Below, piece after piece: positions 23,101 through 46,205 of a DNA stretch of 64,000 nt. Within the stretch, counting starts at the first letter, position 1. Each line of letters starts with the position of its first letter. Under the pieces are notes generated by a model. It searched no databases and was not told where the DNA came from. It was given only the letters and a program-made list of their open reading frames with translations. Origin of the DNA: Chiloscyllium plagiosum (Eukaryota); assembly GCF_004010195.1 (NCBI RefSeq), contig NC_057719.1, forward strand, positions 31,384,370-31,448,369, given 5' to 3'. Made by a program: the position numbers and the translations under genes.

Positions 23101-23667
23101 ATCATGCTTAAAATTAAAGTTCTCTCTCCGCTTTGTGTCCTGAGTGTTTCTGTGCAGTCCAAACACAAGTTGACCCCTTTGAGCTGCTGTGCATGTCTGA
23201 CTATTCAAACAAAAATGCTCTCCAATCAGCTTGGCACTGCAAAAATAGAATGGCAGATTATATTTATAGATCTTTACTGTCTTTTCAATTAACTCTTTTC
23301 TCATCCTTATTGTAATAATGCTTTTATAATAAACTAGCTTTATTTAAAAATGGTTAGTACGTACTATGGAGTTAATTTTGCTTCTGATAAAAGTATAACA
23401 AAAACTTGTATGAAGAAGGGAAATTGTAATTTTTCAAGCTGTGTTATTAGTTTACATTAATTATGGTTCTGATTATATTAAAAAAATCAAATTGAAGTTC
23501 AATCAAATGAGCTAAAAATTAAGTGATTTAGTTCAGATTTGGGCAGCATTGTGAAGCATACAAAGTAGTGTTACACTATAACTTTGTTTATAATGTAATA
23601 CTGAAGATGCAATTTCAGAAATTGAAAAAGGATAGACTTGCAATTGTGACAGCAAATGTCCATCACA

Positions 23668-23907
23668 CGGGTGGCACGGTGGTTAGCACTGCTGCCTCAC
23701 AGCGCCAGAGATCCGGGTTCAATTCCCACCTCAGGCGACTCTGTGTGGAGTTTGCATATTCTCCCTGTGTCTGCGTGGGTTTCCTCCGGGTGCTCCGGTT
23801 TCCTCCCACAGTCCAAANNNNNNNNNNNNNNNNNNNNNNNNNNNNNNNNNNNNNNNNNGCCGAAGGGCCTGTTTCCACACTGTAATTAATCTAATCTAAT
23901 CTAATCT
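23668..23907 (+). mobile_element. HE1-type tRNA SINE spanning an assembly gap
   Basis: A/B boxes (tggcacggtggttagcac, gggttcaattcc) and an (aatct)n tail; N-run at 23818-23858. Confidence 0.85.
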
Positions 23908-24529
23908 CACAATTTGATTCTGTCACAAGTGAGCCTCAGTCCTCACTAGCTATAAAATTTTAACAAGTTTTCTGGATAGCTATTTGGATTGTGAATAATA
24001 GGTATTATTTTTGCCAAAAACCTGACCTGAAATGCTACACTTGATGCGATCTGTAAACCTGTCACAGCCCTTCAGCTTCCTGGTGGCATATTTACTAGCT
24101 AATCTATCTGAAAGTGACTGAAACACACTTTGAAGCTATTGAGGATATAATCTTAACATGACATTAAACCACTTTTTGATTTCATTTCAGTTTATTTACA
24201 CATTAGCATGCTTTACAGATTACATCTTTGCAGTTTACATGTTTACAGCTATTTAGTTTTACTACATCTTCTAATGCACAAATAGTTCAAGTGTAAAACA
24301 ATATGTTTCAATTTTAAATCAAGATGAACCTGTTATTACTGTTAACACATTGTAGTTTTACCAAGTAAAGAAGCAAGATATCAACTAAATACCATGACTT
24401 TTGCTTCTGGTGGAATCTTCAAAACTGGTGGATCGTTAGTGTTTCAAACTAGGTTTTATTTGTCTTCATTGATATTTGGAAACATTAATAATTTTAAAAA
24501 AGGAAAATCATAAGTTGACTGAAACTGAA

Positions 24530-27500
24530 GTGGCCCTTGGAATATTAGTCCAATATTCCATGAACTGGAGCAGTTCCTACAGATTGGAAGGTGACAAATG
24601 TAACCCTGTTATTTGAAAAGGGAGGAAGAGGGAGAACTGAGAAGTAAAGTCCTAAGATCATGTGATGATACTGTGACGATATGATGGTTGATACTATGGG
24701 AGAGAGGTGCTGTGCAATCTATATGGAGCCAATAAAGTAAACAGTTTGGGGCCTTGTAGTGTCTTTTTAAAGTTGGAATAATAGAAACAGCCTGAATGGT
24801 AGGAGTCAAGCTCCCACAGACCCAGGATTTTAAGTTTAAGTTTTCCAGTTGTTGCTGGGATCTTGAAGCTGAATATGGAAGCTACTTTACCCCTCTCTGT
24901 TACAGCTAAAAGCTTGGCATTTTCTTCCTGCTGCTAGAATTGTATGTGAAACCATCTGTTCTACTGAATTTGCCCTTGCCAAAGGTGTGTTTATGTGATG
25001 TTACTATTTTGGAACAGTTACTATTTAGTTAGATAATTTATTATTCTGTTAAGTTTTCCAACAGAGTTGCTGTTTAATTTCTCCTTTTTTTGTCTTTTAC
25101 ATGTGCATGAATAAATTGTGTTCTGTGCTTCAACTGGTAGTTTGACTAATCGAATTGCATTCAGAACTTACACTTGCCTTTAAAGTAAGGAAAAGTTAGG
25201 GTCTAGGCTATCTTATTAATATTTTGGGGGTGGGGGGGGGGGTTTGGTTTGGTCTGGTCCATACCATCAGAAATTGGGGAAATGCTAGATGTGAAAATAA
25301 TGCATTTGAAAAGCATTAATGGGATTAGACAAAGCCAACATAGGTTGATGAAAGACAAATGATATTTCACAAATCAAGTTTTTGGGGATGTAAATAGAAT
25401 AAATAAAGGCGAGCCAATGGATTTATTTAGATTTTCAGAAGGCATTTCAAAAAGGGGTTCGTGGGCAGCATTAAAGTATAGGTGGTAATATATTTGAGTG
25501 GTAGGCAGTGTGACTTGTGGAGAATTACAGGATCAGTGCTTGGTCCTCTGCTATTTGTGGTATAGCTGTTAAGAGTACAGATTTGAGATGGCCCAGGGAA
25601 TCCCTTATGGACTCAGACCTGTAAGCCTCTCTCTAGGTTCGTCCCGGCGATCTTTGGAAGTCTGGAATAAAAAACCCTCTTACAGACAGATTAGTTTACT
25701 TTTAGTCATCCCTTTGTTTACCAATAGCGTCACTGTTACAACATAACACTGATACCTATAAGCTAAACTAACTAGGTTCTAATAACCTAGGAGAATAAGA
25801 TACCAGCTCTTCAAGTGCCCCAGCAGGCTACTCTGATATACTGATACAAAGTGGCTTCCTTTATGCAAAAGTTTAAAAAACATTGCATGTTCTTAATTAG
25901 ACAGACAACAATGAATGACAATAATTCATAAGGAAGAAAAGTTAATTGACAGGTCTGTGTATGCTTGACTAATCACTCCTTCAGGCCCTAAGCCATTCAT
26001 CACGTGGAAAAAGCATATCCAACCGAGTTAGGTGCCTGCCAGTGAGATAAGCTTCTATCATAAAGAGGCACCAGTCTGAGCTAATTGGAGAGGTCATAAT
26101 GTAAACTTACACAGCTCACATGTCTGATACAATTATTTTACAAAATGGCTTCTTAGCAAGGAGGGTAAACTTTTTACCATAAAATGGGTTCCTGACAGGT
26201 TATATGAGAATCTCTTCAATGTTAGGCTTAGAATGACTATTTTTTTAAAGCTAGGAGCAGACAATGAGAGATCACTGAAATCATTCTGTACCTGAGGCTG
26301 AAATGTTACAATAAGGTTGTATTTAAACTGATTCATTAGTCTTTGAATTAAATATGTTTCCTTTTCAGGGTTGTGATTCAAATTCAAATAAGACATAAGA
26401 TCTGAATAGTTAGAATTGACAGTGGGGCGGTCTGTAGAGTGGACTGCAAGAACAGCAAGTAAATTAAAGTTTCATCAATATTACCTTTTACAGATTTGTA
26501 TTTAATAACCAGTAATGGTTACTCAATATCATCATAAAGTCCCAAAATGCAATTAAATTCACTCCATAGCAGGTGAGCACTAAGAGTTAATTTTCTACTG
26601 GCTCCAACAGCCTCAGCACGAAAAAAGTCCCTTTCTCTAGTATCCTTTTGAATCCTCAAGTCAGGGTCTTGTAACAGCAAAGATTTTTTTTCTCTCTGCG
26701 TCTGCCCTGTTTGCAAGGGGTAATAAGAATCCATTATAACTGACAGCATCTGACGATTAATTACAAAGGTTTTAATAGTACTGAGTTTTGTTTCAGGGTC
26801 AGAATCAAACACGGTCATTAATTTCACAAGGGAATGGCTGTGAGTGTTATCACTTGGTGTTGTGTTCACGCAGATTCACTGATGCTAAGGCAAATGTTCT
26901 TAATTGCCTTACAGCATCCCGTTATCACTTGGTGAGCCCAGATGTCCCTATCTTCTGCATTCCTTGAGTTCCCCTCTTTTTCTGAGCCTTCCTGCCTGCC
27001 TATTTTCTAATGCAGTAAATTGTATTCTATAATTCAGCATTACGTTTTAGTCTAAATGTTTAAAGGCTATAGACTTTCTCATATATAGATGACTGGGGAT
27101 GAGGAAAATGGATTTCCTGATTACTCAAGACTGTTTGGGGTTGGGAGGAGGCACCAAAGAAAGATTTAGACAAGTTGAGTGAATGGGCAGACACATGGCA
27201 GATGCAGTACAATGTTGCCAAATGCTAAGTTATACACTTTGATGTGAAAAACAGAATATTATTTAAATGATATATTGTAAAGTGTGGATATGCAAAGGGA
27301 TCTGGGTGTCCTTGAGGAACGAGCAATTAGGAAAACAAATAGTGTTTAGTCTTCGTTGCAAGAGGATTTGAGTTCAGAAGTAGGTATGTTTACTGCAGTC
27401 ATATAGGGTTATGGTGAGACCACACCTACAGTATTGTATGCTGTTTTACTCTCCCTATTTATAAGAATATACTGGTCATAGATGGAATGCAAAGGAAGTT

Positions 27501-27960
27501 CACTCAGCTGATACTCTGAATGGCAGGCTGTAAGAGGAGAAACTTTTTCAATCGGACCTGTATTCACTAGATTTTAGAAACTGGGAAGGGGATCTGATTA
27601 CAATAAATGATTTCAGAAGTACAGGACAGATTAGATGGAGGGAGGATGTTTTCCCTGATTGGAAAGTCTAGAACCGGGGGATATGATCTCAAGATATTTG
27701 GGGGGGGGGGGGGGCGGTGCAGGGTAGACTGTTTAGAACTGCGATGAGGAAACTTTTTTCAGTCAAAAGCTGATAAATCTGTTGAATTCTCTACCACGGA
27801 AATCTGAATATATTCACATAGTGATGGTCAAATCTTTAGATTTAAAAGCATCAAGCAGGAATATAGCATTATGATAGAGGATCAGCCATGATCAGACTGA
27901 GTAGCACAACATGTTCAAAGCACTGAATGGTCTACTGTTACTCCTAGTTTCAATGCTTAC
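24530..27960 (+). mobile_element. Degenerate CR1 LINE interrupted by two insertions
   Basis: CR1-like segments at ~24530-24660, ~25270-25560 and ~27085-27960, separated by non-CR1 blocks. Confidence 0.65.
24661..25267 (+). mobile_element. Probable solo LTR
   Basis: Begins TGTGATG and ends near CCATACCA; ATCA-like duplication at the flanks; internal AATAAA near 25110; interrupts a CR1. Confidence 0.4.
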
Positions 27961-29381
27961 CCAAGTGAATGATTTTATAAAAATGCATCTAGTGATAATA
28001 GATGATGTGCAAAACAGCAAATGCTGCTGACTTTTGTGCAAGAAAGCTAAAGGTTATATTCTTTTAAACACTTCCCTGGTTTGACCTTGAAAGGCAGTTA
28101 TAAACACATTTATTTTGCTAAAAACTTTAAATAAAACTTAAATGACATCTATTTTATTCTTTTTACAGTCACCTACAGTGAAATGCATAGAATAGTCGTT
28201 AAATTGTTGTGACTAATCTATAACTTTGAGATTTAAACAGAGAATCACTTTAGCTTTTTTTGAAACAGTTTTCTTCTGTTCTTAATCCAAATGATAAAGT
28301 ACATTTTTCAATTTGTTTTATTCAAAAGAACACGTTTTCATAATCAGGAACAATTTAGGATTCATCATGATAGTTTCATCACAATAGCTTGGTATTAATT
28401 TGCTCATGGTACATACAGCAGTAGCTTACCTGACCTGACTGATGCCACTTTGGAGTGACGTCTGCCTCTCTGACTTGAGGCTGTTTCCAACTTCCTGGCT
28501 TCTGACTGTTTGAGGCTTTCAAAATCCACTAGATTCAATTTGCCTGTTAGGACTGCTATCTGTTCCTGCCACGCCAAATGGCATTCAGCCACATCCCCAC
28601 AGGAGCCACTGAGACACTTTGAAACATAACAGCATTCCCAGTCACTCCCTTATATTGGCCCAGTCTGACCTTGGCAGGCCTCTATTCTGTGGAGCGCTGG
28701 GCACTGTCATGTGACAGTTTCCACACTTTTTCCCTCAAAGCAGTAGGGTCCCTTGGCATACTGTGGCACACAACCAACAGAATGACAGTGGACAGCCACA
28801 AACTCCATCTGAACTACCCAGTTATTGCCTGTTACCCCACTGCCCATACAAAAATCCAGCAATCCCTTACACTCTTTCCCCCCCAGCTGCATGCCACAAT
28901 CTGATGTATGACCTCTTGTGCTGGCCAGCCATGTATAGAGAGAGAGAAGGAAATAGTAGCAAACCCAGATGCAATTGATAACCTGCTACACAGCAGGAGG
29001 ACCAGGGAAGCCAGCCAGGAATCACAGCCTATTGAACAACGTGCTGAGAAGATCCTATTGGTGATGCCGGCCAGCAAGAAGGGTGTTGCAGATCCCTTTT
29101 TAAAAAAAAGCCAACTGACAGCATGATTTTCAGGAATGCAACCATGACTTTGAGAGGACACCCTGTAATTAATTATAAGTCTTCAGCAAAGTTTTGACCG
29201 CAACTGACTAGATTTATTTAGTACAGTATCAATCTGATCATTTTAATGGTATGTTTTTCATGTTCAATTTTGAATTTTTATCAATGTGAGTTTACGCTCA
29301 TGCTAGCACATTAATTTCATATTTTCACAAAATTAGTCACTGTTCAAGGTCTGTGCTCCATACCAGACCTTTTTTATTTAC

Positions 29382-29553
29382 TCAAGGGCTATGAATAAAC
29401 CAGATTTCGTTGTGTCGATTTGGAGCAGCAGGATTGTTATAAACAGCAACGATGAAGGTATCATGCAGGAACTGCTCAGAAGTGTCTAGGTGCTGTCCTA
29501 ATTGGTTAATCTGTTGGAGAATTGACTCTTCAGTGGTGTTGCCGTTAAAGGGT
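29382..29553 (-). CDS. soul4: Nested SOUL-family gene, last coding exon
   Basis: ttctgcttgtgcag acceptor; (R)PFNGNTTEESILQQINQLGQHLDTSEQFLHDTFIVAVYNNPAAPNRHNEIWFIHSP-stop (SOUL C-terminal Y..P....RxNE[IV]W); AATAAA at 29373-29378 just after the stop. Confidence 0.92.
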
Positions 29554-32214
29554 CTGCACAAGCAGAAAATGATGAACAATTAGGATTCTTGTTTACTTTT
29601 CTGATGAATTTCAAAGTTTGACACCTTTTTAAAGCACCAGAATGCATTATGATTTTCCCAGATAGTTACTAAGTTTTGTTTGAATGTCTATTGTAACGAA
29701 TTACAATTCATGTCTTTTTGTACACATATATCTATTTACTATATTAAAAATTTTGATAGCTTTAAAGAAATGAGAAACTCCAATATCATGCTGTTCTAAT
29801 CAAAAAGCCCACATTAAAATCAGAGTTTCCTGACCTATTGGCCAGGGATTGTGAGAAATGATATTGCAGTTGAGTTCCAAGGCAGCAGTGACTGCCATGG
29901 AATTCAAACTTATTGTGGGTGTGGCCTTATGGGCTCCTTTTTTTCATTCATTCACAGTATGAGTGGTGTTGTCGGCCAGCATTTATTACCCATCCCTAAT
30001 TGCCCAGAGGGCAGTTAAGAGTCAACCACTTTGCTGTGGGTCTGGTGTCACATACACGCCAGACCTGGTGTGGAAGGTAGTTTCCTTCCTTAAAGGACAT
30101 TAGTGAGCTAGATGGGTTTTTCTGACTATCAACAATGGATTCATGGTCATCGTTAGACTTTTAATTCCAGCTTTTTTTTAAAAATTGAATTCAACTTCTG
30201 CCATCTCCTGTGGCAGGATTCCGACCCATCCCCAGAACATTATATATGCCTCTGGATTAACACTCCAGTCATAGCCTAATGGTGTTATCTCTACCCCAAC
30301 CAAGCAGTGAAATAAGATCAGGGCTCTCTTGTGGTGCAGTGGTAGTGTTCCCACTCCTGGACCGAGCGACCTGAGTTCAAGTCCCACGTGCTACAGCGGT
30401 GTGTAATAACAGGTGGTTTAAGAAAAATAGGGTAATGCTAGGTGATAGTCTGCGAAACCCTATCTTAAGTGTGTTATCTATTTGGCACCAGTTATAACTG
30501 TAGGTGCTGTTAATGTAATTTGTCCTTTTCCAACCCCTCAATATCAGGTAAGCCAAACAATCTTTCAATTGTACTTGTTACTCTGACCACCCTAAAATAT
30601 TAGCTGATAACATGATTGTTGCCCTGGTTGGAGAAATGTCACCTTTCCACTCGCCCATCCTCCTTGCTGAGTTAGAAATTGAACCTGCACTTCCCCAAAC
30701 ACCATTAAAACCAAAATCAAGAGTCAGTTATTGGGGATTAGACTGAGTAGGTGAGGGAAGAGAAGTGTCCTTCTGAGTTACTGCTCCAGCTTAGTTAATT
30801 TCTCAGGCTTTTGTGTTCCTCTGTCCCAACCTACTTTCTTCCTCTGGAAGGTGGAAAGATGCGGAGCTTGTTTGATGTTTCCTCATTTGACTTTGATACT
30901 TGAAGCTTTGTTTCTGGGCTGTATCCATAAACATCCCATTGCCAGCTTAAAAATGGCAATGTTGGGGCACAGTAATTTCATAGTTATGCAACTGGAACAG
31001 CAAAGCAGACTTGGAGTTCAGATCTCACTATGCCAGACTGTAAAATTGAATTCAGGAAATCTGAGCCCGTTTTTAAAAATTGATTATTAAAATTATCACA
31101 TTGTTGTAAAAACACACTAGTTCACTTATCCCTACCACATCAAGTCTGTAGTCCCAATTTACTGCCTTCTGAAATGGCCCAGCAACCCACTTGGATACAT
31201 AAACCATTTTTCATTATCTTCCTGGGATAACTGTTCAGAATCTGAACAAAAACATTGAGAACAAAAAATATTGGAAAGGATGGGGAATTGTGAATGGCTT
31301 GTCAGAAAAGCATGTTCTAAATGAGAAAAGAAGAATTTGATATATGCAGTAGTTAATCAAGTCGCAGTGTTACCAGATATAGTGTTAAACACTCTTTTTT
31401 ATTTCAACATGTATTAAATGGATTTTAAAAGACTTATCTTAGAAGTGGTTTTATTTCATGACAAAACCTAACCTCAGAATATGAGCAATTACTTAGGTAA
31501 ATGACAAATTATTTGAGTGAGTTCGTCCCTCGTCAACAAATCACTGAGTTGTGACCTTTCTATTTGATACTATCTATAGTGTTAACAGAATGATTGTTTC
31601 AAATTAACAATTCAGTTTATTGTTTAAAAATATTCAGTAGTTTAAAAAGCTATTCAGCTAGCTGCAATATTATCAATAAGTTGGGTTGTTCAATGTCTGT
31701 GCTTTTTGTTGTGTTTAGATTTTTTGGCTTATTTCTGCTTGGGTCATGTTTAATTTGCCTTCTGCAAGACCTTTCAAAAATGGCAATGCTACCATAGACT
31801 TAAAAAAAAACACTTTATCATATTCTGTCATGTAATTCTGAAACTCTGTTCCTTACCAAATTTGAGAGGGGTTTGGCTGTTTGCACAAGTCTGAGCTCGT
31901 TGACACCAAGGAGAATGTACATTAGCAGCAATATCTCTCAAGGATAGTTACTAGTTAAAAGAAGTTAATGCAATTTTAATAAAACAGTATATCATGTGAC
32001 AAAATCTGCTACACAATAGGATCTTTGTTTGACATCAATGCACCAATGATTGCCAACTGTTCATTTGCACCACTAATAATTATTGACGTGTGCATAATAT
32101 TAAGCTGATTATTTAAAACAAGTTCTATTTTGTTTAGGCTGTGCATGCAGACTTCTAGAAATATGTGCTTTGTCAGTGATACATGTGCAGTCAGCAAACA
32201 TAATGTAACAACTA

Positions 32215-32770
32215 GGAGTAGGAGTAGGAATTCAACCCCTTGAGCTCTTCTGCCACTCAATACAATCATGGTTGATCTCATCTCTGCTTCATCTCCACTC
32301 TCATACCCACTAACCATAATCCTTCAACACATTAATAATGAAAAATCTGTCTATCTCCTCAAATTTAATCAGTGTCCTCACATCCACTGCATTCTGGAGT
32401 AGAGAATTCCATAGATCCATGATCCTTTGAGAGAAGTAATTTCTCCTCCCGTTTTAAATCTGCTACCCCTTATCGTAAAACTTGGCTCTTGTTCTAGATT
32501 CCCACACCAAGAAGAAATATCCTTTCTATGTCTCCTCAGTCAATCCCCTTTTGCATATTTTATTTCTCAGTTAGATCTCTCCTCATTCCTTAAATCTCTA
32601 GAGGGTATAGGCCTAACGTGCTCAATCTCTCTTCATCAAACAAACATCTTCCCTCTGGAATTAATCTTAGAAACCTCCTCTGAACTGTCTCAATGCAACC
32701 TGTAGGCAATAGCCCAGGTGTGGTTTCACCCAATGCTTGTACACTTGCAGCAATATTTCCCTATTTATCT
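32215..32770 (-). mobile_element. CR1 3' fragment (in the last intron of the nested gene)
   Basis: taggagtaggagtagg..caatcatggttgatct 3'-end signature shared with the 19815 and 57715 copies. Confidence 0.6.
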
Positions 32771-32903
32771 AATCTTAATTTAGCCAATCATCAATAATGC
32801 ATTGGTGTCATCAAATAGATCCTTTCCACAAGTCTCATCATTTAATATGGGCTAACTGTTTATGTACCCTGAACTTTGTTTAATTTTGTATTATGCAATT
32901 TAC

Positions 32904-33087
32904 CTAGTGTATATAGTGTGAGCAGGCCACTCCTCTATTGCAATTTCAGCATCAAAAGGTTGAGGTGTCTGATTTTGAAATTGTGCTGGCAGGTAGTAAG
33001 CTATGGTTACTTCAGGCTGGAGCTCTGTTCTGGTCTGGTTGGTGTGCACAATGGTAACGACAGGCAGTGTCATTCCTAGGAAGAGAC
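32904..33087 (-). CDS. soul4: Nested SOUL-family gene, coding exon 4
   Basis: cttgtttctgcag acceptor; 184 bp; (G)LFLGMTLPVVTIVHTNQTRTELQPEVTIAYYLPAQFQNQTPQPFDAEIAIEEWPAHTIYT(R) (SOUL MTxPV and YLP..Q..P.P motifs); donor gtaaat. Not in the ORF track. Confidence 0.92.
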
Positions 33088-33682
33088 CTGCAGAAACAAG
33101 GTAAACCAGTAGATTATTGGGCCCAAATGCAATGCATAACTAGGCAGAAGATTATAAACTCTGCTCTTGTGTTAGTCATCATTCAAAAAAAAGTAATGAA
33201 AAACTGATTATTTTTTGATTTCTTTTTTTACTTAGGAAATTTGAAAAAATTTGTCATGGCTTTTTAGCAGCCACTTAACAGGACAGACAAAAGTAATTGC
33301 TAATATCGTCTGCAAACTCATTACAAATACTGTTTATGAAATGTGCATTATTCAACAGTGCATGTTTAAAGTTTTTCTCAGTTATGCAAAGAACAGATAG
33401 TAAAGAAATAGAATACTTTTTAAGTCTTCCACAAATCTGTTTACAGTTTCACTGAATAATACATTGAAGATAGTAGTGTAATTGATTTAGTTTGAAATTT
33501 ATTAATCCAAGTAATCTACGACATTATATCTAGTCGTTCTGGAGGTTACACAGATGGAGGGCAGTTAATCAAAATAACTACAGCAAATAACAATATGACA
33601 GCATCATGTTCTTCCATTGAGCATTGTAAATTTACATTAGTATTATTCTTCTGCAGCATGAATTGTTATTTTTGAAAGTCAC

Positions 33683-33824
33683 CTGCTGAGTTTTGTTGGC
33701 AGATGTATTTCATTAATTTCATAAATCCGAGGCATGTACTCTGCTCATAGCTTGATTCATTCTGTTTTACACAAGCCCATTTTGCTTTCTCATATTGACG
33801 CTTTTCATAAAGTAGTTCTTCAGC
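33683..33824 (-). CDS. soul4: Nested SOUL-family gene, coding exon 3
   Basis: aatttacag acceptor; 142 bp; AEELLYEKRQYEKAKWACVKQNESSYEQSTCLGFMKLMKYICQQNSA-G (SOUL hallmarks YExRxY..KW and GFxKLxxYI..N..G); donor gtgact. Confidence 0.92.
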
Positions 33825-34571
33825 CTGTAAATTAAAAAAATAGAACACACAAATAAAAATTGTTTACTGCCAACCATGATAACTTTGGTTTGAGCAAATA
33901 GGGATGTAAAAATGGATTGCGTCTTATGTTGTGGTTCACCAAAATGTTAGAAGCTTTCAAAACAACTTGCACATGTTATTTTAGCACTGCATTACTAATT
34001 TAATATACTGAAACAATCACTGTGTTGTCCTGCCATCACTAAATGTAGAGCCTCGCTTGGATACCTTTTTGAGTTAATATTTGTACAGTAAACTATCTTA
34101 TCTGATACTCTACCAACAAGACTTCCCTTCTAATTGGAATTCCTGATATTCTCCTCATGCAAATTGTCACTTTACCAACAAGGTATCACTCAGAAGTTAT
34201 TCATAACCCAGGTTACTTTGGAATGGGGAAAGCTTTTGAATAGAAGTGTTGATGGTCCTTATTTGTCTAATTAGTGAATTATGAATTTTGTTTTTACAGA
34301 AAAATATCACATATACTTTTGGTTCATCAATCTTGGACACAGTACTATATTTTATAGTCTTTGTACAGTGTAATTTTTTTTCTAGCTCAACCATACAATT
34401 CAAGTAACTATTCCATTGCATTACCTGTCTCTTCTAACCATTAATAGAGGTTTATTCTATCTCACCTAGCATGATGATGACACAAGTCAGGATGAAGATT
34501 TAAAAAAATAACGTTCTCTACCTTCAAACAAAATGCTAACCCCTTTATAAAAGGACTTCATCATTTATTAC

Positions 34572-34663
34572 CTTCCTTTTATGACCTGTAGTCTTAAATG
34601 GAACCAGTTCCCTGTCATGAGATCGGTTATTTCTTGACATCTGTTGAATTGGTTCAGCCATGT
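34572..34663 (-). CDS. soul4: Nested SOUL-family gene, coding exon 2
   Basis: Minus-strand ctttcatctctcag acceptor; 92 bp; (D)MAEPIQQMSRNNRSHDRELVPFKTTGHKRK; donor gtaata. Phases 1/0 link exons 1 and 3 in frame. Not in the ORF track. Confidence 0.85.
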
Positions 34664-35639
34664 CTGAGAGATGAAAGCAAATAATGGTTTAAACATGACT
34701 ACTTTGGCTATAAAACTTTGAATCTAATTGCAGCCTCAACTCCTCTTTCCTTCAGGGTTGATTCCTTGATTCCCTTTTTAGATTAAAAATCTACCCAGCT
34801 CGGTCTTTAATATATTCATGGCCTAGCCTCCGCTGTTCTCTAGGGTTAAGAATTCCAAAGATTAATGACAGTCAGAATTCTTTTTCACTTGCTTTAACGG
34901 AAGATCAGTTATTTTGAAACTGAACCCTCTAGTTCTGGATTCTCCATGACAGGAAACATCCTTCAGCATCTATTTTGCCAAAACATTCAAAATTCAGTAT
35001 GTTTTAATAAGATCACCTCTTCCAAACTTACTGAAGCAAAGAGGAGATAGTGAGGACTGCAGAGTCAGAGTCATTAAATATGGTGCTGGAAAAAGCAGGT
35101 CAGGTAGCATCTGAGGAGCGAGAGAGTTAATGTTTTAGGCATAACCCTTCAGGACTCTTGACATAAGCAAAAGCTAACCTATCCTTAACTTAGTCCACCC
35201 CAGTTCTACACCGGCACCTCTACATAATACCTTCATAAAGATATTATCCCTTGCTCATAAAAAAAACCGTTTTATTACAGGAATCAACCTAGTGAACCTT
35301 CGCTGAACTTCCTCTAAAGTAATAAATCTCTTGTTAAATAAAGAGACCAGAATTGTACATTGTGCAGTTATGGTCTTATAAGCACCCTGAACCGGTAACA
35401 AGGCTTCCTGATTTTAACACTCCAAATGCCCAACCTCCCCACCTTTGCAATGAATGCCATATTCTGTTTAATTCTATTTACGTGCTCCACTTCTGAATGC
35501 TAACTTTTGCTAATTCATGTATCAGGACACCCAATAGTCTTTCTCTTTTTTTAAATAATTTGTTTTTCTCCTCTTCTACCAATCAATCTTTCAAACCTGC
35601 TCTATTGTTTGCAAGATTGTCGAGAGAGGGAGCTGTGGT

Positions 35640-37755
35640 TTACTAAAGAAGTTGAAGCAGTTGTCAAGAGGAAGATGGCGGCTTATGTGAGGATGAGGCG
35701 TGAAGGCTAAGTTAGGGAGCTTCAGAGTTATAAGTTAGCCAGAAAAGATCTAAAGAGGGCTAAGAAGAGCCAGGAGGGGACATGAGAAGTTGGCAGATAG
35801 GATCAAGGAAAATCCTAAGGCCTTCTATAGGTATGTCAGGAATAAAAGAATGACTAAAGTAAGATTAGGGCCAATCACGAATAGTAGTGGAGAGTTGTGT
35901 GGAATCTGAGGACGTAAGGGAACTACTTAATGAATACTTTTCAACAGTATTCACATCAGGAAAGGGCAATGTTAGTGAGAATATGGAGATACAGGCCACA
36001 AGATTAGATGTGATTGAGGGTGACAAAGAGGAGATTTTCGCAATTTTGAAAGATCTGAAAATAGATAAGACCCTGAGCTGGATGGGATTTATCCTCTGAT
36101 TCTCTGGGAAGTCAGAGAGGAAATTGCAGAGCCTTTGGCTTTGATCTTTGTCACCATTGTCGACACGAGTAGTGCCAGAAGACTGGCAAATGTTGTTCCC
36201 TTGTTTAAGAAGGGGAGTCGGGACAACCATGGTAATTATAGGTCAGTGAGCCTTACTTTGGTTGTGGGTAAGGTGTTGGAAAAGGTTATGAGAGATAGGA
36301 TCTATAATCATCTGGAAAGGAAGAATTTGACTAGGGATAGTCAACATGGTTTTGTGAAGGGTAGGTCATGCTTCACTACCCTTATTGAGTTCTTTGATAA
36401 GATGACAAAACAGTTGGATGAAGGTAAAGCAGTTGTTGTGGTGTATGTGGACTTCAATAAGGTTCCACACAGTAGGATATTGCACAAAATACGGAGTTTC
36501 GAGCTTGAAGGTGATTTAGCGGTTTGGCTTAGAAATTGGCTCGCTGAAAGAAGACAGAGTGATAAGATGACAAAACAGTTGGATGAAGGTAAAGCAGTTG
36601 TTGTGGTGAATGTGGACTTCAATAGGTGTTTGATAAGGTTCCACACGGTAGGATATTGCACAAAATACGGAGTTTCGAGCTTGAAGGTGATTTAGCGGTT
36701 TGGCTTAGAAATTGGCTCGCTGAAAGAAGACAGAGGGTGGTGATTGATGGGAAATGTTCATCCTGGAGCTCAGTTACCGCAAGGATCTGTTTTGAGGCCA
36801 CTGCGGTTTGTCATTTTTATAAATTATCTGGATGTAGGCATAAAAGCATGGGTTATAAATTTGCGGATGACACTAAGGTAGGCAGGTTTGTGGATAGTGC
36901 TGAAGGATGCTGTGGGTTACACAGTGACATAGATAAGATGCAGAGCTGGACTGAGAAGTGGCACATGAAGTTTAATGTGGAGAAGTATGAGATAGTTCAC
37001 TTCCAAAGAAGTAACAGGAATGTAGAGTACTGGGCTCATGGTAAAATTCTTGGCAGTGTAGATGAACAGAGAGATCTGTGTCCTAGTGCATAAATTTCTG
37101 AAAGTTGCCACCCAGGTTGATAGGGTCATTAAGAAGGCATAAGGTGTGTTGGCGTTTTTTGGTAGGGGGAATTGAGTTTCAGATCCAAGAGGTCATGCTT
37201 CAGCTGTACAAGACACTGGTAAGGCTGCACCTGGAGTACTGCATACAGTTCTGGTCACCGCATTATAGGAAGGACGTGGAATCTTTGGAAAGGGTTCAGA
37301 GGATATTTACTAGGATATTGTCTGGTATGGAAGGAAGGCCTTACAAAGAAAGAGTAAGGGAACTGAAGCTGTTTTTGTTGGAGAGAAGAAGGTTGAGAGA
37401 TGACTTATTTGAGACGTATAAGATAATGAGAGGGTTAGATAGGATGGACGATGGAGAGCCTTTTTTTCTTGGATGGTGAAGGCTAACATGAGAGGACGTA
37501 ACTTTAAATTGAGGGGTGTTAGATTTAGAACAGATATTAGGAGTAGTTTTTTCACTCTGTAGTAGGGGTGTGAAACAGCCTGCCTGCAACAGTAGTAGAC
37601 TCGCTGATGTTAAGGGCATTTAAATGGGCTTTGGACATTAATATGCATAATGATGGAACGGTGTAGGTTAGATGAGCATCAGATTATTTTCACAGGTTGA
37701 TACAACATTGAGGGCCGAAGGTCCTGTACTGCGTTGTAACGGTCTATGTTCTAAT
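35640..37755 (+). mobile_element. CR1 LINE ORF2 (RT) with 3' end, frameshifted
   Basis: ANVVPLFKKGSRDNHGNYRSVSLT, DSQHGFVKGRSC, YKFADDTKVG, QLYKTLVRLHLEYCIQFWSPHYRKD; ends in a ctatgttcta tail. Confidence 0.9.
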
Positions 37756-39684
37756 ATGACTTTTCTTCTGACTCAGTTTCATTTTCTGCCTTATTATCAT
37801 ATACCTTCCATGCTGTTTGAAAATCTATCAGTTTCATTACTGATAAATTGAGAGAGAATATAAGGAACCTAGTCAAGGGTGGGATACAAAAAATGAAGAC
37901 TTAGGAATGGCAAACACATCAAAAAAATTCATGCAAGGTATTAATGAAGAATTAGGGGAACTGTTGCAAATTGTCTCTTCAAATTCAGAGGATGGTGGAA
38001 GTACCGTAAGTGGATAAGTTTATTATTTAAAACATCTCCACAGCTATCCCCTGGTTCTTTGGCTAGTTATCTTAAATCTCTATTCTCTTGTTACTGATTC
38101 CTTTCCTCTCAAAGTTGGAAATATTTTCCTCTCTTTTGTTATCCAAAATTCTCAAATTTTAAAAAACTATTAAATGTCCCCTTGACTTTGTATTCTAAGG
38201 AAAATAACTCCCTCTTCTCATAGAATCCCTACAGTGTGGAAACAGGCCATTCGGCCCAACCACACAGCATCCCACCAGACCTGGGTTCAAATCCTGCCAT
38301 GTTATATTGTGGAATTTTAAATCAATAAAAATCTGGGATTTTAAAAATTCTAGAATAGTCTAATGATGAACATGAATCCTTTGTAAGGGGAAAAAAGTCT
38401 AATTCATTCGTCTACTTTATGGATGAAACTATCATCATTACCTGGTTTGGCCGACAGCAGTGTTGTTGACTCTTAACTGCCCTCTGGGCAATAACTGCTG
38501 GCCGAGACAGTGATGTCTTCATTCAGAGAATACAAAACGTTAAGTACAGGGCTACTTTGAAACTCCACTAATAAATATGTCTTAATCATCTGCTGAAGTT
38601 GATCCTATGCTATTGTACAAAAACAGTTTGTAGAGGACAAGGAAACAGTTGATAGTTATAGCAGTTTGATTTGCTGTTAAATTGGAAGAATTTACGTTCT
38701 CCCAAAAAATTATGTATGAATATAAAGTTTGTATAGATGATGGTAATAGGATAATTTCATATGAACCTTTCTTGTCTGGCAGCAAATAATTTATGAAAAT
38801 TCTTTATGTATATTTTACCTAATCTCTAAAGCCAGTTTGAGATGATTATTTTACCTGATTGTAAAAATAAGCAAATGAAATAGTGCATTTTCATCACTTA
38901 CAAAACCAGGGGAAAAGAAAGTCCGATTGGTTTATTGAGGTGCATCGTTCCACTTTCCTGTGCTAATAGCTTTAATTTTTATGAACCATGTGGTGACATT
39001 TTCTATTTCTTATGTGGATGGGTTGGGCTGGGCAAATACTGTTTCACTGCTGACTGTTAAACAGCCTAGGATTTGTTTTTTGATATTCTGTTGGTTGCTT
39101 TTATAAAATCTGATGTCACATACGGTTGTCACAATTTTTTTTAATGTGTTGCAAAATCTGACTGCTTTCCTTCATTTCTTGCTGGTTTTATTTTTTAACA
39201 AAACAATTCACAGAACTATCATAGCAACATTTTTCTATTTTTAACCTAAATTGTTGGATCTGGTGTACGTTCTGGGCAGGAAAAAGCGATGGAGAGAATT
39301 GAACTCGAGTTTTAATTTTGCACAGAATTAATATACATTTTAAATGAGTCGAGTTCTTTCTTTAATTGGTCAGTAAGTTCTAATTTAAATCGAACACGTT
39401 TTTTCATTCTGGGCAAGAAAATAACCGAACAACAATCAAGCAAGGGGATTTTGTTAATTGTGTGAAACAATTAACCATGAAATATTACAGATCTGAAACA
39501 ATTACATAAGTATGCTTTATGGTTAACTCTCAGCTGGAGTTTGAGGGGAGAGAGGCATTTCAACTTAAAGTAGATTTAAAGGTTTGAAGAACTCCCTTTT
39601 TTTTCTCAATATCAATTTCCACAGTAATATCTGATTAGTTATTGATATATTCGGAAACTACTCGTGTCAGCTTGCGTATCTTAC

Positions 39685-39907
39685 CTCTTGGCACAACCAC
39701 CTGATGCCCACGGCCGATGTTTTGCCAGTACCCGAGGAGATTGTCCTCTTCTTGCTCGATTTCATGTTCGTTGTTTTCATCATTGCCGTTGTCACTACTT
39801 GCCAAGTCCAAGTTCTCGTCTTCCGTCACTGAGTTTAGATCTTCCAAACTGAGCAGAAACCGTCCCGCCCCATCACTACTTCCAAACCTGCATCCCTGAC
39901 GCTCCAT
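39685..39907 (-). CDS. soul4: Nested SOUL/heme-binding family gene, coding exon 1 (acidic N-terminal extension)
   Basis: ATG at 39907; MERQGCRFGSSDGAGRFLLSLEDLNSVTEDENLDLASSDNGNDENNEHEIEQEEDNLLGYWQNIGRGHQVVVPR-G|gtaaga donor. The choice of start codon is inferred, as an in-frame upstream ATG exists at 40030. The symbol rests on recalled resemblance to fish soul4. Confidence 0.8.
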
Positions 39908-39919
39908 CTGTGCAATCCT

Positions 39920-40420
39920 GTACCTTTTTGGATAGAAAAAAGTGATCGAGCAGACTTGATAGCGTTTGGGTGCTAAGTGATTTTTTAAAAAAATGTCTAT
40001 CAACGTTGAAACGCGTGGATATTTGTACATTACAGATTAAATCTTGGCGTGTTTCGATTGCTTACCCTAATTGACACGTACACGCGCGGGTTGTGATCCA
40101 AGTGAGGATTTTTGTTGTGGACTCATTTACCCCCGAAGTGGTGCGCACTCCCAGCTGTTTTTGTCATGAGGCCGAGCTTGCAGAGGCGAATCGCTTCAAA
40201 GAACAGGAGGGATTAAAATCAGTGTCGTTAGGGTGGGAGGGAGCCAAATATGCGAGATGAAAGCAGGTTCGCGAGAGCATCCGGACAGACAGCAAAACAG
40301 TGTAAAGGACGACAAAGATCAGTGCTTCACAAATTAAATCAATTTGGTCCTCCTTGCCCGTTCATGTGGTGCGGTGGGCGGGGAAATTGTCAACTGTTGA
40401 CGATGTCGGGCTTTTAGCTT
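39920..40420 (-). promoter_or_regulatory. CpG-enriched putative promoter/5'UTR of the nested SOUL gene
   Basis: Local CpG enrichment (cacgcgcggg, gcgaatcgc, ggcggtgggcgggg) in otherwise CpG-poor intron DNA, directly upstream of the nested gene's first coding exon. Confidence 0.55.
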
Positions 40421-41118
40421 ACCCATAAGATTGATGGATTTATATTCATGAGCGAAACTCGTCATTACTATCTTTATCTTGTTTTACTGTCTAACGTTTA
40501 GCATGGGATCGTGTATCTAATTTACATTTCCTCTACTACCTACCTCTTAAGAAATCCTTGCTTGAGTTCTTTCAAACCCAATGAGTTTAATTTCTTCTAT
40601 ATTTCGTTATATGTCAATTAGTAATACGAATCTAAGGCAATATTTGTTTTTTGGTTTGTTACAACCCGCCATAGCTTGAACATTCTTACATTATGCCTAT
40701 AACACCAGCCCTTACGCCTTTTAACATAAGGCAAATCCTATGTCTGTTTGAAAGTATAATCAGCTAAAGATTGCCACCAAATCAAAGAAAGAGAGCCACA
40801 GCTGATTTGGTAGTTAGGGTCCAAAAGGTTATTGAGATTTTTAACAATTTGCTTCAACTAACATATTGCCTACGAATGAGATTTTCAGTGACAAGGGAAT
40901 GGAGATTGTAGTAAGGATTAAATTGATGGTTTTAGCCAAATGAGATTAGTAGGGAGGACTGGGGGTATTTGGCAGATGCAATTGAATGGAACACTTCAAT
41001 GTTGGTGAACAAGTTCTCCATTTACTATTTGGATATCAGGTTGGTGGGGTATGGGGAGGTTTAAAAAAGGTTAATGGCTGAGTAAAGGAGCTGGTGATCA
41101 TCCTTACTCCAGAATCAT

Positions 41119-41208
41119 TCCTGAAGAAGGGCTTATGCCCGAAACGTCGATTCTCCTGCTCCTTGGATGCTGCCTGACCTGCGCTTTCCCAGCAACATAT
41201 TTTTCAGC
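41119..41208 (+). mobile_element. 90-bp Penelope-derived insertion with a minimal hammerhead-like motif
   Basis: CTGAAGA-A-GGGC-ttat-GCCC-GAAAC-GTC; flanked by a perfect 18-bp TSD TCCTTACTCCAGAATCAT (41101-41118 and 41209-41226). Confidence 0.75.
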
Positions 41209-43467
41209 TCCTTACTCCAGAATCATCCTTTTAATTGCAGTGATCAGTTTTGCAAGCAGATACCAGACCCTACTAAGGAGCTCATGGCATAGGGGATATG
41301 CCACTGACCAAAATGCTTTGGGGAACTTGGGTTCAAATGCCACCACAGCAGCTGATGAAATTTAAAATCAATTAGTTTAAAAAAAATATGGACAACAGAC
41401 CTAGTCACCGTAATGACCACCACGTCACTATAATTGAGTCTTGGAAAATTCATCAGATTCGCTAATGTTCTTTAGGGAAGGAAATCTGCTATCCTGTTTT
41501 ACATGTGACTCAAGATAATCAGCAATGTGGTTGACTATTAATTGATGTCTCAAATGGCCTAGTAAGCTACTCCATTAAAAGGCAATTATGGATGGGCAAT
41601 AAATGCTGATCTTGCAAGGGACACCCAAATGCAAGAATAAAGATAATAAACATTCCTAGAATTAAGTTTATTTTTAAAAGGTGCTGCTGGAATAAGAAAA
41701 TGTGCTGAGATTGGACCTGGCAGGTCTCTCTGCTACAGTAATTTGAGAGGGGAATATGCTTTATGTAATTGGATAAAGTGCCTACTCGTAGTTTTAGTTC
41801 AGTCTATGTTGAAAATAAAAATTCTCGGCATGGCATAGATTGCTTGTTAGACTTTGCTTTGAGGTTGTTGGTGATAGAATCAATAGAATTGATTCTTCTA
41901 CAATAAGTGTATAGTCCATGTCATTTGGGATTGGAGGATTATTTTAAACTACTCCAGATCCACGTTTTCCTTTCATCCTCTATCCAGCTGCTAACTGCTT
42001 CATATGTAGGGCAGCACAATGGATTAAACTAACCTGTGATGAAAGATTTGCTTCCAGCTTTGTGGCATATATAGCCTTGGCTATGGAAGTGTGTGACAAA
42101 TTATCAATGGGAATGTTAAGGGCCTTCATAGCAATTAATACTTTCTTAGTGATTTAAATAGTAGGGAAATCCTTTTCCATCTTTTCTGGTTCAGTTCACC
42201 ATATTAAAAAAAACTGGTGGTTTATTTATATTGTAGAAAATGAAATATACAGCTATCAATTTGGAGGATTAATTCATAATGCTGTTCCAAAATTTAGTCT
42301 TGCTTCCTAGGATTAAATATTTTGAAAATTGGTGATGTTGCTGTATGTATGTCATCGTGAGCTTTGCAATTAAGGACATAACTGTGGAAAAGGCTAGACA
42401 AAGAATAGGTAAGTAATTGTTCACAATTTATAATTATAATTAAATTGCTGATAATACGACTGTACTGAGCTTTCACTGACACAAGTGAATTATCTGTTTC
42501 TTTTCCAACTACATTCACTATTTTAGGCATTTAATTCCAGGTTTACATGAAGTTAAATAAGTAAAATAAAACACCACTGTTAATTCTGTGTCCCAGCAAA
42601 TATTAGTATGTACTACAGGTTACTTGGGAGTCAGTGGCTCAAGCATGGATCATTGAGTTTGCAGTAATTTTGACTCCAAACTCCCATCATGGGTGTCATC
42701 TTGACCCTTGTTTTACACTTCCCAAGAAATAAAGACAGTTACTGTGTTGTCATTACGCAAATGATAATTTGACATAACAAAGACCCAGTTTTCTGCCTGT
42801 TGGTATAGTGAATATTCCAGTACAAAATACAGAACTGCTTTGTTGCTGTATACCACACTCCTGGGGGGTAGCCTGAATAATAAGAATCTCAATTGATTCA
42901 CTTCATTGTCTGAAAGATGGGACCTCCAAATCACTCAATACTGTAGAGAATACCAACCTAGACCTTGTGCCTAAGACTATAGAATGAGGTCTCTCAAGTA
43001 TTAGAACTGAAGGTAGTAATTTCATGTTTATTATGTACGTAATTTGTCACTTTACTTTAGTGAAGCCTAGTACCAATGGTTTAAGCATGACTGCATAGTT
43101 GTGAAACGAACAAAAACACAAATTGCTGGTGAAACTCATCAGGTTGGGTAGCACCTGTGGAAACAACAGAGTTTTGAGTCCAGTAATCCTTCTTCAGAAC
43201 CATGTTGTTCTTCCTGTTTTTGCTTGTTTCAGATCTCGAGCATATGCAATTCTTTGCATTGTTATTTGCATAGTCATGGTTGTTGTTAGAGGCCAATTTA
43301 TCTCAGTCCTGGTACATCACCTGCTGGAGTTCTTAAGGGCAGTGTCCTTGACCCAACTCTCTTCAGTTGCTTCATCAGAAAGTTGGGATGTCTGTTGCTG
43401 ATTATGAAATGTTCAGAACTAGGTGGTGGTGTAGTAGTAACGTCACTGGACTATTTGACTAGAAGAC

Positions 43468-43748
43468 CGTGAGGTCTGCAGATGCTGGAGATCAGAGTTG
43501 AGTGTGTGTTGCTGGAAGGTTTTTGAGGTATGTGGAGATGAGTTCGGTGGAACAGGAGCAGGCTGAGACGATAGTTCGGCCGGGGTAGTCAGGCTTGTGG
43601 ATCTTGAGTCGGAGGTAGATTTGGATGATGTGGGGTTCCTGAGCTATGAGGTTGGCAGCTGTGGGTGGGGTCTGGCCCGAAACGTAGATTCTCCTCCTCG
43701 GATGCTGCATGACCTGCTGTGCTTTTCCAGCTGCACACTCTCAACACA
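43468..43748 (-). mobile_element. Internally deleted Penelope-like element with inverted ends
   Basis: Palindromic terminal motifs enclose an RT fragment, YLRLKIHKPDYPGRTIVSACSCSTELISTYL. Confidence 0.7.
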
Positions 43749-44834
43749 TGTTTGACCAGAAACCTAGGCTAATGTTCTGGAGACTTGGGTTTGAAACTCT
43801 CCGGCAGATGGTGAAATTATATCCAATGAAATGCTCACATAATGGTAACCATGTAATCGCTGTCTTAATTTATCTAGTTCAATAATGTCCCGTAGAGAAT
43901 GAAATGATGAAATATATACTTTTATCTGGTCTGGCCTACTTGTGACCACAGCAATGACAACAAGGATGGGCATCGTTGTCCACATACCAGGAATGGGTTG
44001 AAAGAAAATATTTGCTCTAATTCAGATACTGAAGCAATCCGAATCCATTTGCAGTAAGACCTGACCAATGTCCATTTGGACTGCATACGTGTCTGGGAGT
44101 GACCACTTCCTTAACATCAATTAGCATTACCATGCTGAATCCTGTACAATTATTATCCTGGCAGATACCTTTGACCAGAAACTCAACTGGGCTAACCATA
44201 TAAATACTGTGGCTATGAGAATATGTTAGAGGTAGAAATTTTGTGGAGAGTAATTCACCTCTTCTGTGTCCAGAATCTAACAAACTCAATATACTTCCAA
44301 AGTATGGCACTGTCTTTTTAAACTGTGTTAAATAGCTGTAAAATTCTGATCAGAAATCTTGAAAGCAGTTTCATAAAATGCAGTTCAAACATTTATGCAA
44401 TTCATGAACATGAAATGTGCATTTGCAAATGAGCGTTTCAGTTAGACTAAGAAAGGATTTCCTACATTTTTTTTCCTTAAAGCTTATAATAGTTTATGAC
44501 GAAGTAGGAACAAATGTGTTATCTAGAAAATCTGCACACATGGGAGCAAATGAAAGGGATTTACGTCTGGTAGTAGAACATCATAGTAATCGCTTACGGG
44601 ATTATCTAAATTTAAGTGCTATTGAAAGACCTGTAATTTAGTTCTCAGACTGCATTATCCATTACTGCTGTCCTTTGGAGCTTAGTATTGCAGCTATGTT
44701 GAATTAATGTTTTGAAGAAAAGCTGAGAGTAAAAACTGGCAGTCGAAGCTGTTGGATTGTTGCATAGGTTTAACTAATCAATTATATTTTTACGAAATGA
44801 ATCCTGCTATCTATATTCAGTCTTGAAAATAAAC

Positions 44835-45030
44835 TACAAATGCTGGAACCCAAAGTAGACAAGCAGGAGGCTGGAAGAACACAGCAAGCCAGGCAGCATC
44901 AGGAGGTGGAGAAGTTGACGTTTTGGGTGGAACCCTTCTTCAGTCCTGAAGAGTTATACCCAAAACATCGACTTCTCCACTTCCTGATGCTGCTTGGCTT
45001 GCCATGTTCTTCCAGCCTCCTGCTTGTCAT
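44835..45030. mobile_element. Penelope-derived palindromic miniature element (second subfamily)
   Basis: gacaagcaggaggctggaagaacacagcaagcc...ggcttgccatgttcttccagcctcctgcttgtc inverted repeat. Confidence 0.7.
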
Positions 45031-45877
45031 TATTCAGTCTGGCCTTCATGATTCCAGTCCAACATTGTAGTTGATTTGTAATTGCTGCCTTAAATAGTTT
45101 AATAAACCATTCCGTTTAAAGAGGCGTACCATAATTATCTTCTCAAAGCAACTGGAGATGTACGATTAATGTTGGCCTCAGTCATGATGCTCTACCAGGG
45201 AATGAATTTTTCAAGTCAAATTTAAGGCAGTTATAGTACAAATAAAATTGGAATTGTGACTTGTGTGTGATGTAGAAGGTGGTTCAGTACAGGTTCCTGC
45301 TTGGAATGTAAAAGAATATCATGAAGACTTGTGCCTGCTTCTTGATTGTTTTGATTCAACATTCAGCTGAAAATATGATGTAGTGATTTTTATGTATTTT
45401 CCCCCGGTAATTGCTATTTGCTATGTCTTTCAATATTTCACTGCAATGAAGGTGATACTCTGTTAATAAAAGTTTCCAAATGTAAGGTGATCATCTATCA
45501 CATTCCAGTTCCATGCTCTGGTCATCAAGTGAACTTCAGGTGCACATCAGTACTCTTTCTAATTGCAACTTGTCATGTTCTGACCTGATTATTTCTCTTA
45601 AATGTAAAATTTACTCTCTTCCCTGATCAATTGCTTTACACAGTAGCACTCTGCTATTCTGTTCCAGGGTTCAGCTTATTCTTTCACCTTGTGTGATCAC
45701 CATGCTCTCTGGTAGTACTCCCATCTGCTGTCATCAATGGAACTGCTGCTTGTTTACCATTCCATTTTCAGATAACCTTTGTCCTTTGCAAGTTCTGGTC
45801 CTGGACTGCCCTTTTGTCCCCTGCTTGAAACAAAATTTAAAATTGATTTCTAATTGTACATAATATTTTTCTGGAGT

Positions 45878-46205
45878 TTACATTACATTACATTGCTTAC
45901 AGTGTGGAAACAGGCGCTTTGGCCCAACAAGTCCACACCGACCCGCCGAAGCGCAACCCACCCAGACCCATTCCCCTACATTTACCCCTTCACCTAACAC
46001 TACGGACAATTTAGCATGGCCAATTCACCTAACCTGCACATTTTGTTTTTGGATTGTGGGAGGAAACCGGAGCACCCGGAGGAAACCACAAAGACACGGG
46101 GAGAACGTGCAAACTCTACACAGAGAGTCACCTGAGGCGGGAATCGAACCCGGGTCTCTGGCGCTGTGAGGCAGCAGTGTTAACCACTGTGCCACCGTGC
46201 TGCCC
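45878..46205 (-). mobile_element. Full-length HE1-type tRNA SINE
   Basis: Minus strand starts ggcagcacggtggcacagtggttaacactgctgcctcacagcgccagagacccgggttcgattcc; CR1-like 3' end and (aatgt)n tail. Confidence 0.88.

What the first reader, a model, noticed from the sequence alone, without database searches (positions are those of the whole stretch)
29382..39907. Complete antisense SOUL/heme-binding gene nested in FANCM intron 4
Seen in sequence: five minus-strand exons (39907-39685, 34663-34572, 33824-33683, 33087-32904, 29553-29382) with canonical GT-AG sites and compatible phases (1,0,1,2). They join into an uninterrupted 813-bp CDS (270 aa) with a poly(A) signal just after the stop. All lie between FANCM exons 4 and 5 (intron 21917-54959, about 33 kb, the largest here). 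Established: the motifs YExRxY, GFxKLxxYI, MTxPV and RxNEIW define the SOUL/HEBP family. Inference: this is the soul4-type paralogue; I know of no such gene inside mammalian FANCM. An intron-containing gene embedded antisense in a cell-cycle-regulated DNA-repair gene implies convergent transcription over about 11 kb and possibly an ancient or lineage-specific linkage.
Basis: partly seen in the sequence, partly recalled or inferred. Interest (0 to 1): 0.85.

Follow-up and report, generated by a model that had tools for sequence, protein, structure and literature searches.

The report
soul3 gene nested inside FANCM intron
A real, spliced heme-binding-protein gene (soul3) lies backwards inside an intron of the DNA-repair gene FANCM in this shark; the gene is already annotated and nested genes are a familiar arrangement, but its chicken counterpart appears to be the original retina and pineal 'SOUL' gene, which mammals seem to lack.

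Summary
Five GT-AG minus-strand exons give an open 270-aa SOUL protein inside the 33-kb FANCM intron 4. Public contigs support all four coding junctions and a further non-coding first exon. The paralogue call is wrong: it is soul3, not soul4 (AU test p=0.005). The link to FANCM is old: the two genes share a contig length in 15 of 18 comparable sharks, rays, bony fishes and frogs, and 19 of 36 short FANCM models stop at exon 4. Nesting itself was seen directly only here. No mammal is among the 120 closest hits listed (of 254). The chicken orthologue is the RefSeq 'SOUL protein', and it does not group with mammalian SOUL/HEBP2 (p=0.0001). Three introns shared with HEBP1 point to a DNA-level duplication. 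The gene is already annotated, ancient nested pairs are common, and this scan reported the same nesting in a devil-ray genome. I found no paper on the nesting. Modest interest.

The parts
40066..40271 (-). soul3 non-coding first exon (5' end approximate), within a CpG-rich stretch (40001-40500, CpG o/e 1.11) that is the likely promoter
   Evidence: spliced contig record 15 of run X2, organism B; GT-AG intron 40065-39924; CpG scan
39685..39923 (-). soul3 first coding exon (ATG at 39907); acidic N-terminal extension
   Evidence: most shark and ray orthologues start at the same Met
34572..34663 (-). soul3 coding exon 2
   Evidence: a contig end of run X4 at 34600 equals the predicted splice branch point
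33683..33824 (-). soul3 coding exon 3 (start of SOUL domain)
   Evidence: Pfam PF04832 47.2 bits; contig ends at 33797 (X4) and 33710 (X2) equal predicted branch points
32904..33087 (-). soul3 coding exon 4
   Evidence: Pfam PF04832 45.0 bits; 98% identical to a named shark soul3
29382..29553 (-). soul3 coding exon 5 with stop
   Evidence: Pfam PF04832 38.3 bits; X2 record 11 leaves the window sequence exactly at 29553 with 212 further letters
28533..29381 (-). soul3 3' UTR, at least this long in organism B; end not defined
   Evidence: X2 record 11; AATAAA at 29378, 29218, 28322, 28158, 28114
21758..21916 (+). FANCM exon 4 (host, upstream of the nested gene)
   Evidence: tblastn, splice sites
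21917..54959 (+). FANCM intron 4, 33,043 nt, host intron
54960..55091 (+). FANCM exon 5 (host, downstream of the nested gene)
   Evidence: tblastn, splice sites
2303..2837 (+). FANCM exon 1 (DEAD/ResIII helicase start)
   Evidence: Pfam, homologues named FANCM

Best explanation
Two independent genes share one stretch of DNA. soul3 has its own CpG-rich promoter near 40.0-40.5 kb, is transcribed leftwards over about 12 kb, and is spliced into an mRNA for a 270-aa SOUL-fold protein with a conserved N-terminal extension. FANCM is transcribed rightwards and splices the whole unit out with intron 4. The guest most likely arose by DNA-level duplication of an intron-bearing HEBP1-like gene that came to lie in this intron before sharks and bony vertebrates split; it stayed because it cannot easily leave without breaking an essential host, and mammals later lost it. 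The protein probably buffers heme or porphyrins in a hydrophobic cleft as HEBP1 does, without the histidine ligand of mouse HEBP2. Shown: anatomy, splicing, soul3 identity, shared introns with HEBP1. Inferred: nesting in other species, loss in mammals, ligand binding, and that collisions are avoided by different expression sites.
For: Anatomy; single soul3 locus and single full FANCM locus found in this genome. Splicing: X2 records 15 and 11, and 4 contig ends (3 in X4, 1 in X2) that equal predicted k-1 branch points to the base. Tree and AU tests. Same longest-contig length for FANCM and soul3 in 15 of 18 comparable taxa, including a 109,312-bp gar scaffold (counted by eye). Consecutive locus tags in Hymenochirus, Coilia and Umbra, the last two with a FANCM model that stops at exon 4; neighbouring accessions in Spea, Amblyraja, Leucoraja, Denticeps and gar. 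19 of 36 short FANCM models end at the exon-4 border. 0 mammals among 120 listed soul3 hits, whereas mammalian FANCM hits are plentiful. HEBP1-like gene on contig C39 has exons of 139 and 181 nt and intron phases 0,1,2, against 142 and 184 nt and 0,1,2 in soul3. Model of the Mustelus orthologue matches heme-bound murine HEBP1 best (E 2e-15, TM 0.86 by target); Gln stands where mouse HEBP2 has His42.
Against: No coordinates of both genes were obtained for any other species, so adjacency without nesting is not excluded there. 3 of 18 taxa differ in contig length (Pleurodeles, rainbow trout, Myxocyprinus; different assemblies or polyploid copies are my guess), and the Heterodontus accessions are 584 apart. 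In zebrafish GRCz10 soul3 is on an unplaced scaffold, apart from the fancm model on chr17. No bird or reptile pair could be compared. 134 of 254 hits were not shown. X4 has a contig that crosses the exon-5 acceptor unspliced, and the single-cell run X8 gave little or no depth on the exons in the 2% read. The library type of X2 and X4 is not on record. Heme binding was not tested.
Confidence: 0.82

Rival explanations
1. The nesting is functional: antisense soul3 transcription tunes FANCM output (polymerase collision, R-loops, or early termination in intron 4), which is why the pair has lasted so long.
For: Long conservation of the link; about 12 kb of antisense overlap; many FANCM models end at exon 4.
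Against: Ancient nested pairs are common without such coupling: 63 of 91 mammalian pairs have fish or coelacanth orthologues and 19 were lost in frog or chicken (PMC3933685, passages). Mammals appear to have lost the guest and kept FANCM. Truncated models are more simply gene-prediction breaks at a long intron. No expression data on both genes in one cell type were obtained.
Confidence: 0.1
2. The genes are neighbours across vertebrates, but nesting is limited to cartilaginous fishes (for example by a local inversion or move).
For: Direct nesting was seen only in this genome; zebrafish GRCz10 does not show it.
Against: FANCM models from teleosts and a frog break at the same exon-4 border; FANCM precedes soul3 in accession order in 8 of 9 annotations, as sorting by start would give for a nested gene.
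Confidence: 0.06
3. The block is mis-assembled into FANCM, or is a silent pseudogene.
For: The assembly has 101,977 contigs and the intron holds one 41-base gap outside the nested gene; no laid piece spans the whole stretch.
Against: Only one soul3 locus in the genome; intact frame; splice branch points in a run with the same species label; same-contig linkage in other sharks and rays.
Confidence: 0.02

Closest known systems
soul3 (heme-binding protein soul3 of NCBI/UniProt, named after zebrafish soul3)
   Same: Orthologue: 97% identical over 217 aa to a Chiloscyllium soul3 isoform, 79% to Mustelus, 52-63% to bony vertebrates; in the soul3 clade.
   Different: Nothing substantial; the nesting is implicit in annotations but I found no paper stating it.
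Chicken SOUL protein (NP_990120.2); ckSoul of Zylka and Reppert 1999
   Same: 55% identical over the whole length; same clade. PMC3174058 (passages) says SOUL was first found as ckSoul in chicken retina and pineal gland.
   Different: That NP_990120 is the cloned ckSoul rests on its name and on recall; its position inside chicken FANCM was not shown here.
Mammalian SOUL/HEBP2 and HEBP1 (p22HBP)
   Same: Same fold and motifs; three intron positions shared with the HEBP1-like gene of this genome.
   Different: Only 28-33% identical; they lack the roughly 90-aa N-terminal extension; His42 of mouse HEBP2 is Gln here.
soul4 (teleosts) and soul4-like proteins of birds
   Same: Closest paralogue; shares the N-terminal motif in the flatfish protein.
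   Different: Separate clade (100/99), 41-46% identity; zebrafish soul4 is on chr22; no separate soul4 locus was found in this genome.
Ancient antisense nested pairs such as LRRTM in alpha-catenin introns (PMC3933685)
   Same: Guest on the opposite strand of a large conserved host intron across jawed vertebrates, with lineage-specific loss (passages).
   Different: The guest here has six exons and introns shared with its paralogue, so it is not a retrogene; the loss appears to be in mammals, so surveys that start from human genes would miss it.

Membership tests
SOUL/HEBP (PF04832) | Pfam SOUL domain above the curated cut-off | tested here: met
   3 of 5 exons pass on their own
SOUL/HEBP (PF04832) | SOUL fold | tested here: met
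   Model of the 79% identical Mustelus orthologue; the top 10 PDB matches are HEBP1/HEBP2; the window's own protein was not folded
SOUL/HEBP (PF04832) | Binds heme or porphyrin | not testable with these tools
   No assay; inferred from the family
soul3 orthologue group | Groups with named soul3 proteins in a tree and is the best match | tested here: met
   Clade support 96/97; 12 of 13 hits named soul3
soul4 orthologue group | Groups with named soul4 proteins | tested here: not met
   p-AU 0.005 against window+soul4
HEBP2 (mammalian SOUL) | Orthology and His42 heme ligand (role of His42 recalled; a His ligand is stated in PMC7006542, passage) | tested here: not met
   28% identity to mouse HEBP2, Gln at that column
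Nested intronic gene, opposite strand | Whole guest lies between two consecutive coding exons of the host | tested here: met
Nested intronic gene, opposite strand | Host mRNA splices across the guest in this species | not tested
   The laid stretch (24000-43900) held no FANCM exon; 77 of 84 long FANCM models of other species cross this border ungapped
Retroposed nested gene | Parental introns lost | tested here: not met
   Three intron positions and phases shared with the HEBP1-like paralogue

The most novel reading that the evidence does not exclude
The founding SOUL gene of chicken retina and pineal gland is soul3, has sat inside FANCM intron 4 since the common ancestor of jawed vertebrates, and was lost in mammals. 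Mammalian 'SOUL' (HEBP2), on which the apoptosis and heme biochemistry was done, is then a distant paralogue, so the real SOUL protein, with its own N-terminal helical extension, is uncharacterised and is a candidate light-organ gene lost in mammals.
Probability: 0.65. Interest if true: 0.45.

Novelty: new member of a known kind. Interest (0 to 1): 0.3.

Why it matters
It corrects an orthology that reviews blur: chicken SOUL and mammalian SOUL/HEBP2 are different genes by this tree. It adds an old, multi-exon nested pair that human-based surveys cannot see. In practice, fancm knock-outs or large deletions in fish, frog or chicken may also hit soul3, unstranded RNA counts can mix the two genes, and the long intron probably explains why many fish FANCM models stop at exon 4. 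It does not reveal a new kind of mechanism.

Tried and rejected
soul4 identity: rejected by tree and AU test. Retrogene origin: rejected by shared introns. Second soul3 copy or a separate soul4 in this genome: none found (first-look searches, lower bounds). Direct coordinates in other species: zebrafish GRCz10 table gave soul3 on an unplaced scaffold with no other listed gene; a second zebrafish paper gave no coordinates in the 12 of 27 files searched; three chicken atlas supplements had no row for SOUL. Run search: no RNA holder listed on record. X1 contigs cross exon borders unspliced at depth about 4 and look like DNA; X8 was uninformative. The joints table was filled by repeats and listed none of the soul3 junctions; the splice evidence comes from the pieces table. 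Fortunato 2016 and Zylka 1999 are not held, so what they say about orthology is unseen. Paper searches for soul3+fancm (0 papers), SOUL+FANCM (1 unrelated listing), soul3 (11 papers, 10 listed, none on this locus by listing) and ckSoul/ortholog terms (1 listing) found no description. The upstream flank gave no neighbour information. The 111-row tree finished only as a quick tree (97 of 150 representatives had a near-full domain); the careful tree used 28 chosen rows.
Full report
Observation. Exons 3, 4 and 5 each pass the Pfam SOUL cut-off; exons 1 and 2 have no family. FANCM proteins from sharks, a skate, a chimaera, a bichir and a macaque align to six plus-strand exons and continue without a gap from 21916 to 54960; the six exons join into 403 codons without a stop. 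The rest of FANCM follows on the same contig over about 173 kb, and intron 4 is the largest gap among the 20 pieces found. The genome holds one soul3 locus and two other SOUL loci on contigs C39 and C8.

Expression. No listed run is on record as RNA among the holders, so this rests on contig anatomy. In run X2 (organism B) record 15 covers 39685-39920 and 40063-40271 and has 236 further letters, against 234 for exons 2+3; record 11 leaves the window sequence exactly at 29553 with 212 further letters and runs to 28533. This supports all four coding junctions between them, a non-coding first exon with a 142-nt GT-AG intron, and a 3' UTR of at least 850 nt. In run X4 (organism A, the label with the highest share of words) intron contigs end at 39714, 34600 and 33797, the three positions predicted for splice branch points with 31-letter words, and exon depth (48, 72) exceeds intron depth (10-16). 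Against this, one X4 contig crosses the exon-5 acceptor unspliced, X1 looks like DNA, and X8 showed little or no exon depth in the 2% read. Contigs cannot show strand, ends or level.

Identity. 12 of 13 hits to exon 4 are named soul3. In a 28-row tree with named anchors (names) the window protein lies among shark soul3, within a soul3 clade (96/97) that is distinct from soul4 (100/99); holding it with soul4 is rejected (p-AU 0.005). HEBP1 and HEBP2 are far off (28-33% identity). The chicken member of the clade is the RefSeq 'SOUL protein' NP_990120.2, and holding it with HEBP2 is rejected (p-AU 0.0001). [quoted passage not shown] That NP_990120 is that clone is inferred from its name. Long branches join the outgroups, but the soul3/soul4 split does not depend on them.

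Age of the arrangement. soul3 orthologues occur in sharks, rays, chimaera, reedfish, gar, bowfin, teleosts, coelacanth, lungfish, amphibians, turtles, crocodilians, lizards and birds; none of the 120 listed hits (of 254) is mammalian. Locus tags are consecutive in Hymenochirus (GDO86_015998/015999), Coilia (ACEWY4_005163/005164) and Umbra (UPYG_G00229650/229660), and accessions are close in Spea, Amblyraja, Leucoraja, Denticeps and gar, but 584 apart in Heterodontus. 19 of 36 FANCM models under 520 aa end at the exon-4 border, against 4, 4, 0 and 3 at exons 1, 2, 3 and 5; the length floor of that search (311 aa) under-samples the earlier borders. This shows old linkage and suggests a long intron 4 widely, but it is not a coordinate-level proof of nesting outside this genome. 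Zebrafish GRCz10 has soul3 on unplaced KN150178.1 and a fancm model on chr17 (PMC5690287 supplement rows). No bird or reptile pair was compared; chicken FANCM starts at chr5:58.93 Mb (PMC6081845 supplement row) and chicken SOUL's longest contig is 59,506,338 bp, which I recall as the length of chr5.

How it most likely works. soul3 is a separate transcription unit with a CpG-rich 5' end (o/e 1.11), and FANCM removes it with intron 4. The HEBP1-like gene on C39 has internal exons of 139 and 181 nt with phases 0,1,2, matching soul3's 142 and 184 nt and phases 0,1,2, so the guest came by DNA-level duplication and not through an mRNA. A model of the Mustelus orthologue (mean pLDDT 78; residues 1-49 unreliable, helices at 47-68 and 75-86) matches heme-bound murine HEBP1 best. 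Gln replaces mouse HEBP2 His42, so HEBP1-like cleft binding is the better guess; this is inference. Regulatory coupling to FANCM is possible but has no evidence here (10%).

Comparison with what is known. The gene is annotated. Antisense nested pairs that date to early jawed vertebrates are common: 63 of 91 mammalian pairs have fish or coelacanth orthologues and 19 were lost in frog or chicken (PMC3933685, passages). Searches found no paper joining soul3 or SOUL with FANCM, but the two papers most likely to discuss SOUL orthology are not held, and unseen supplements or subscription papers may state it. Two earlier notes of this scan report the same nesting in a devil-ray genome; I recorded my reading before seeing them and did not check their DNA. 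Other papers were seen as follows: PMC7486121, PMC10951430, PMC7686352 supplement searches; PMC12561580, PMC4476465, PMC7700505, PMC7006542 passages.

Verdict. Real and correctly located; soul3, not soul4; an old nested pair of a known kind. The most interesting by-product is that the original chicken SOUL and mammalian SOUL/HEBP2 appear to be different genes, with the former lost in mammals. Interest 0.3.

Noticed in passing
P0291 (NP_990120.2) against P0495 (mouse HEBP2): Chicken 'SOUL protein' is only 32% identical to mouse SOUL/HEBP2 and groups with soul3; many bird, reptile and frog orthologues are labelled HEBP1-like or HEBP2-like in databases.
   Followed up: yes
FANCM models: 19 of 36 short FANCM predictions from fishes and a frog stop at the end of exon 4, probably annotation breaks at the long host intron.
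   Followed up: partly
window 40167-40067 (-): The non-coding first exon holds upstream ATGs at 40167 and 40126; a Chiloscyllium isoform has a 73-aa N-terminal extension from 40126 that reads through the 5' UTR intron, whereas a stop at the end of this exon closes that frame here.
   Followed up: partly
window 35663-37479 and 51627-54320, 47972-48694: Decayed reverse-transcriptase-like repeats (CR1 LINE-like by recall) lie in soul3 intron 1 and elsewhere in FANCM intron 4; very high contig depth marks them and short repeats at about 30 kb, 38.2 kb, 41.1 kb and 43.7 kb.
   Followed up: no
window 44858-45028: A 171-bp imperfect palindrome (86% self-complementary) in FANCM intron 4, possibly a small inverted-repeat transposon.
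   Followed up: no
G000 C39:965612-972946 and C8:107465952-107478927: Two other SOUL-family loci: an HEBP1-like gene on C39 and a more divergent one on C8; no separate soul4 was found.
   Followed up: partly
P0333 (lamprey): Lampreys have a 290-aa protein with the same N-terminal motifs, unresolved between soul3 and soul4; its position relative to lamprey FANCM would date the nesting.
   Followed up: no
chicken chr5:58866260-58882045 (PMC7686352 Table S15): An ovary-specific lncRNA is listed as antisense and intron-overlapping to chicken FANCM; relation to SOUL unknown.
   Followed up: no
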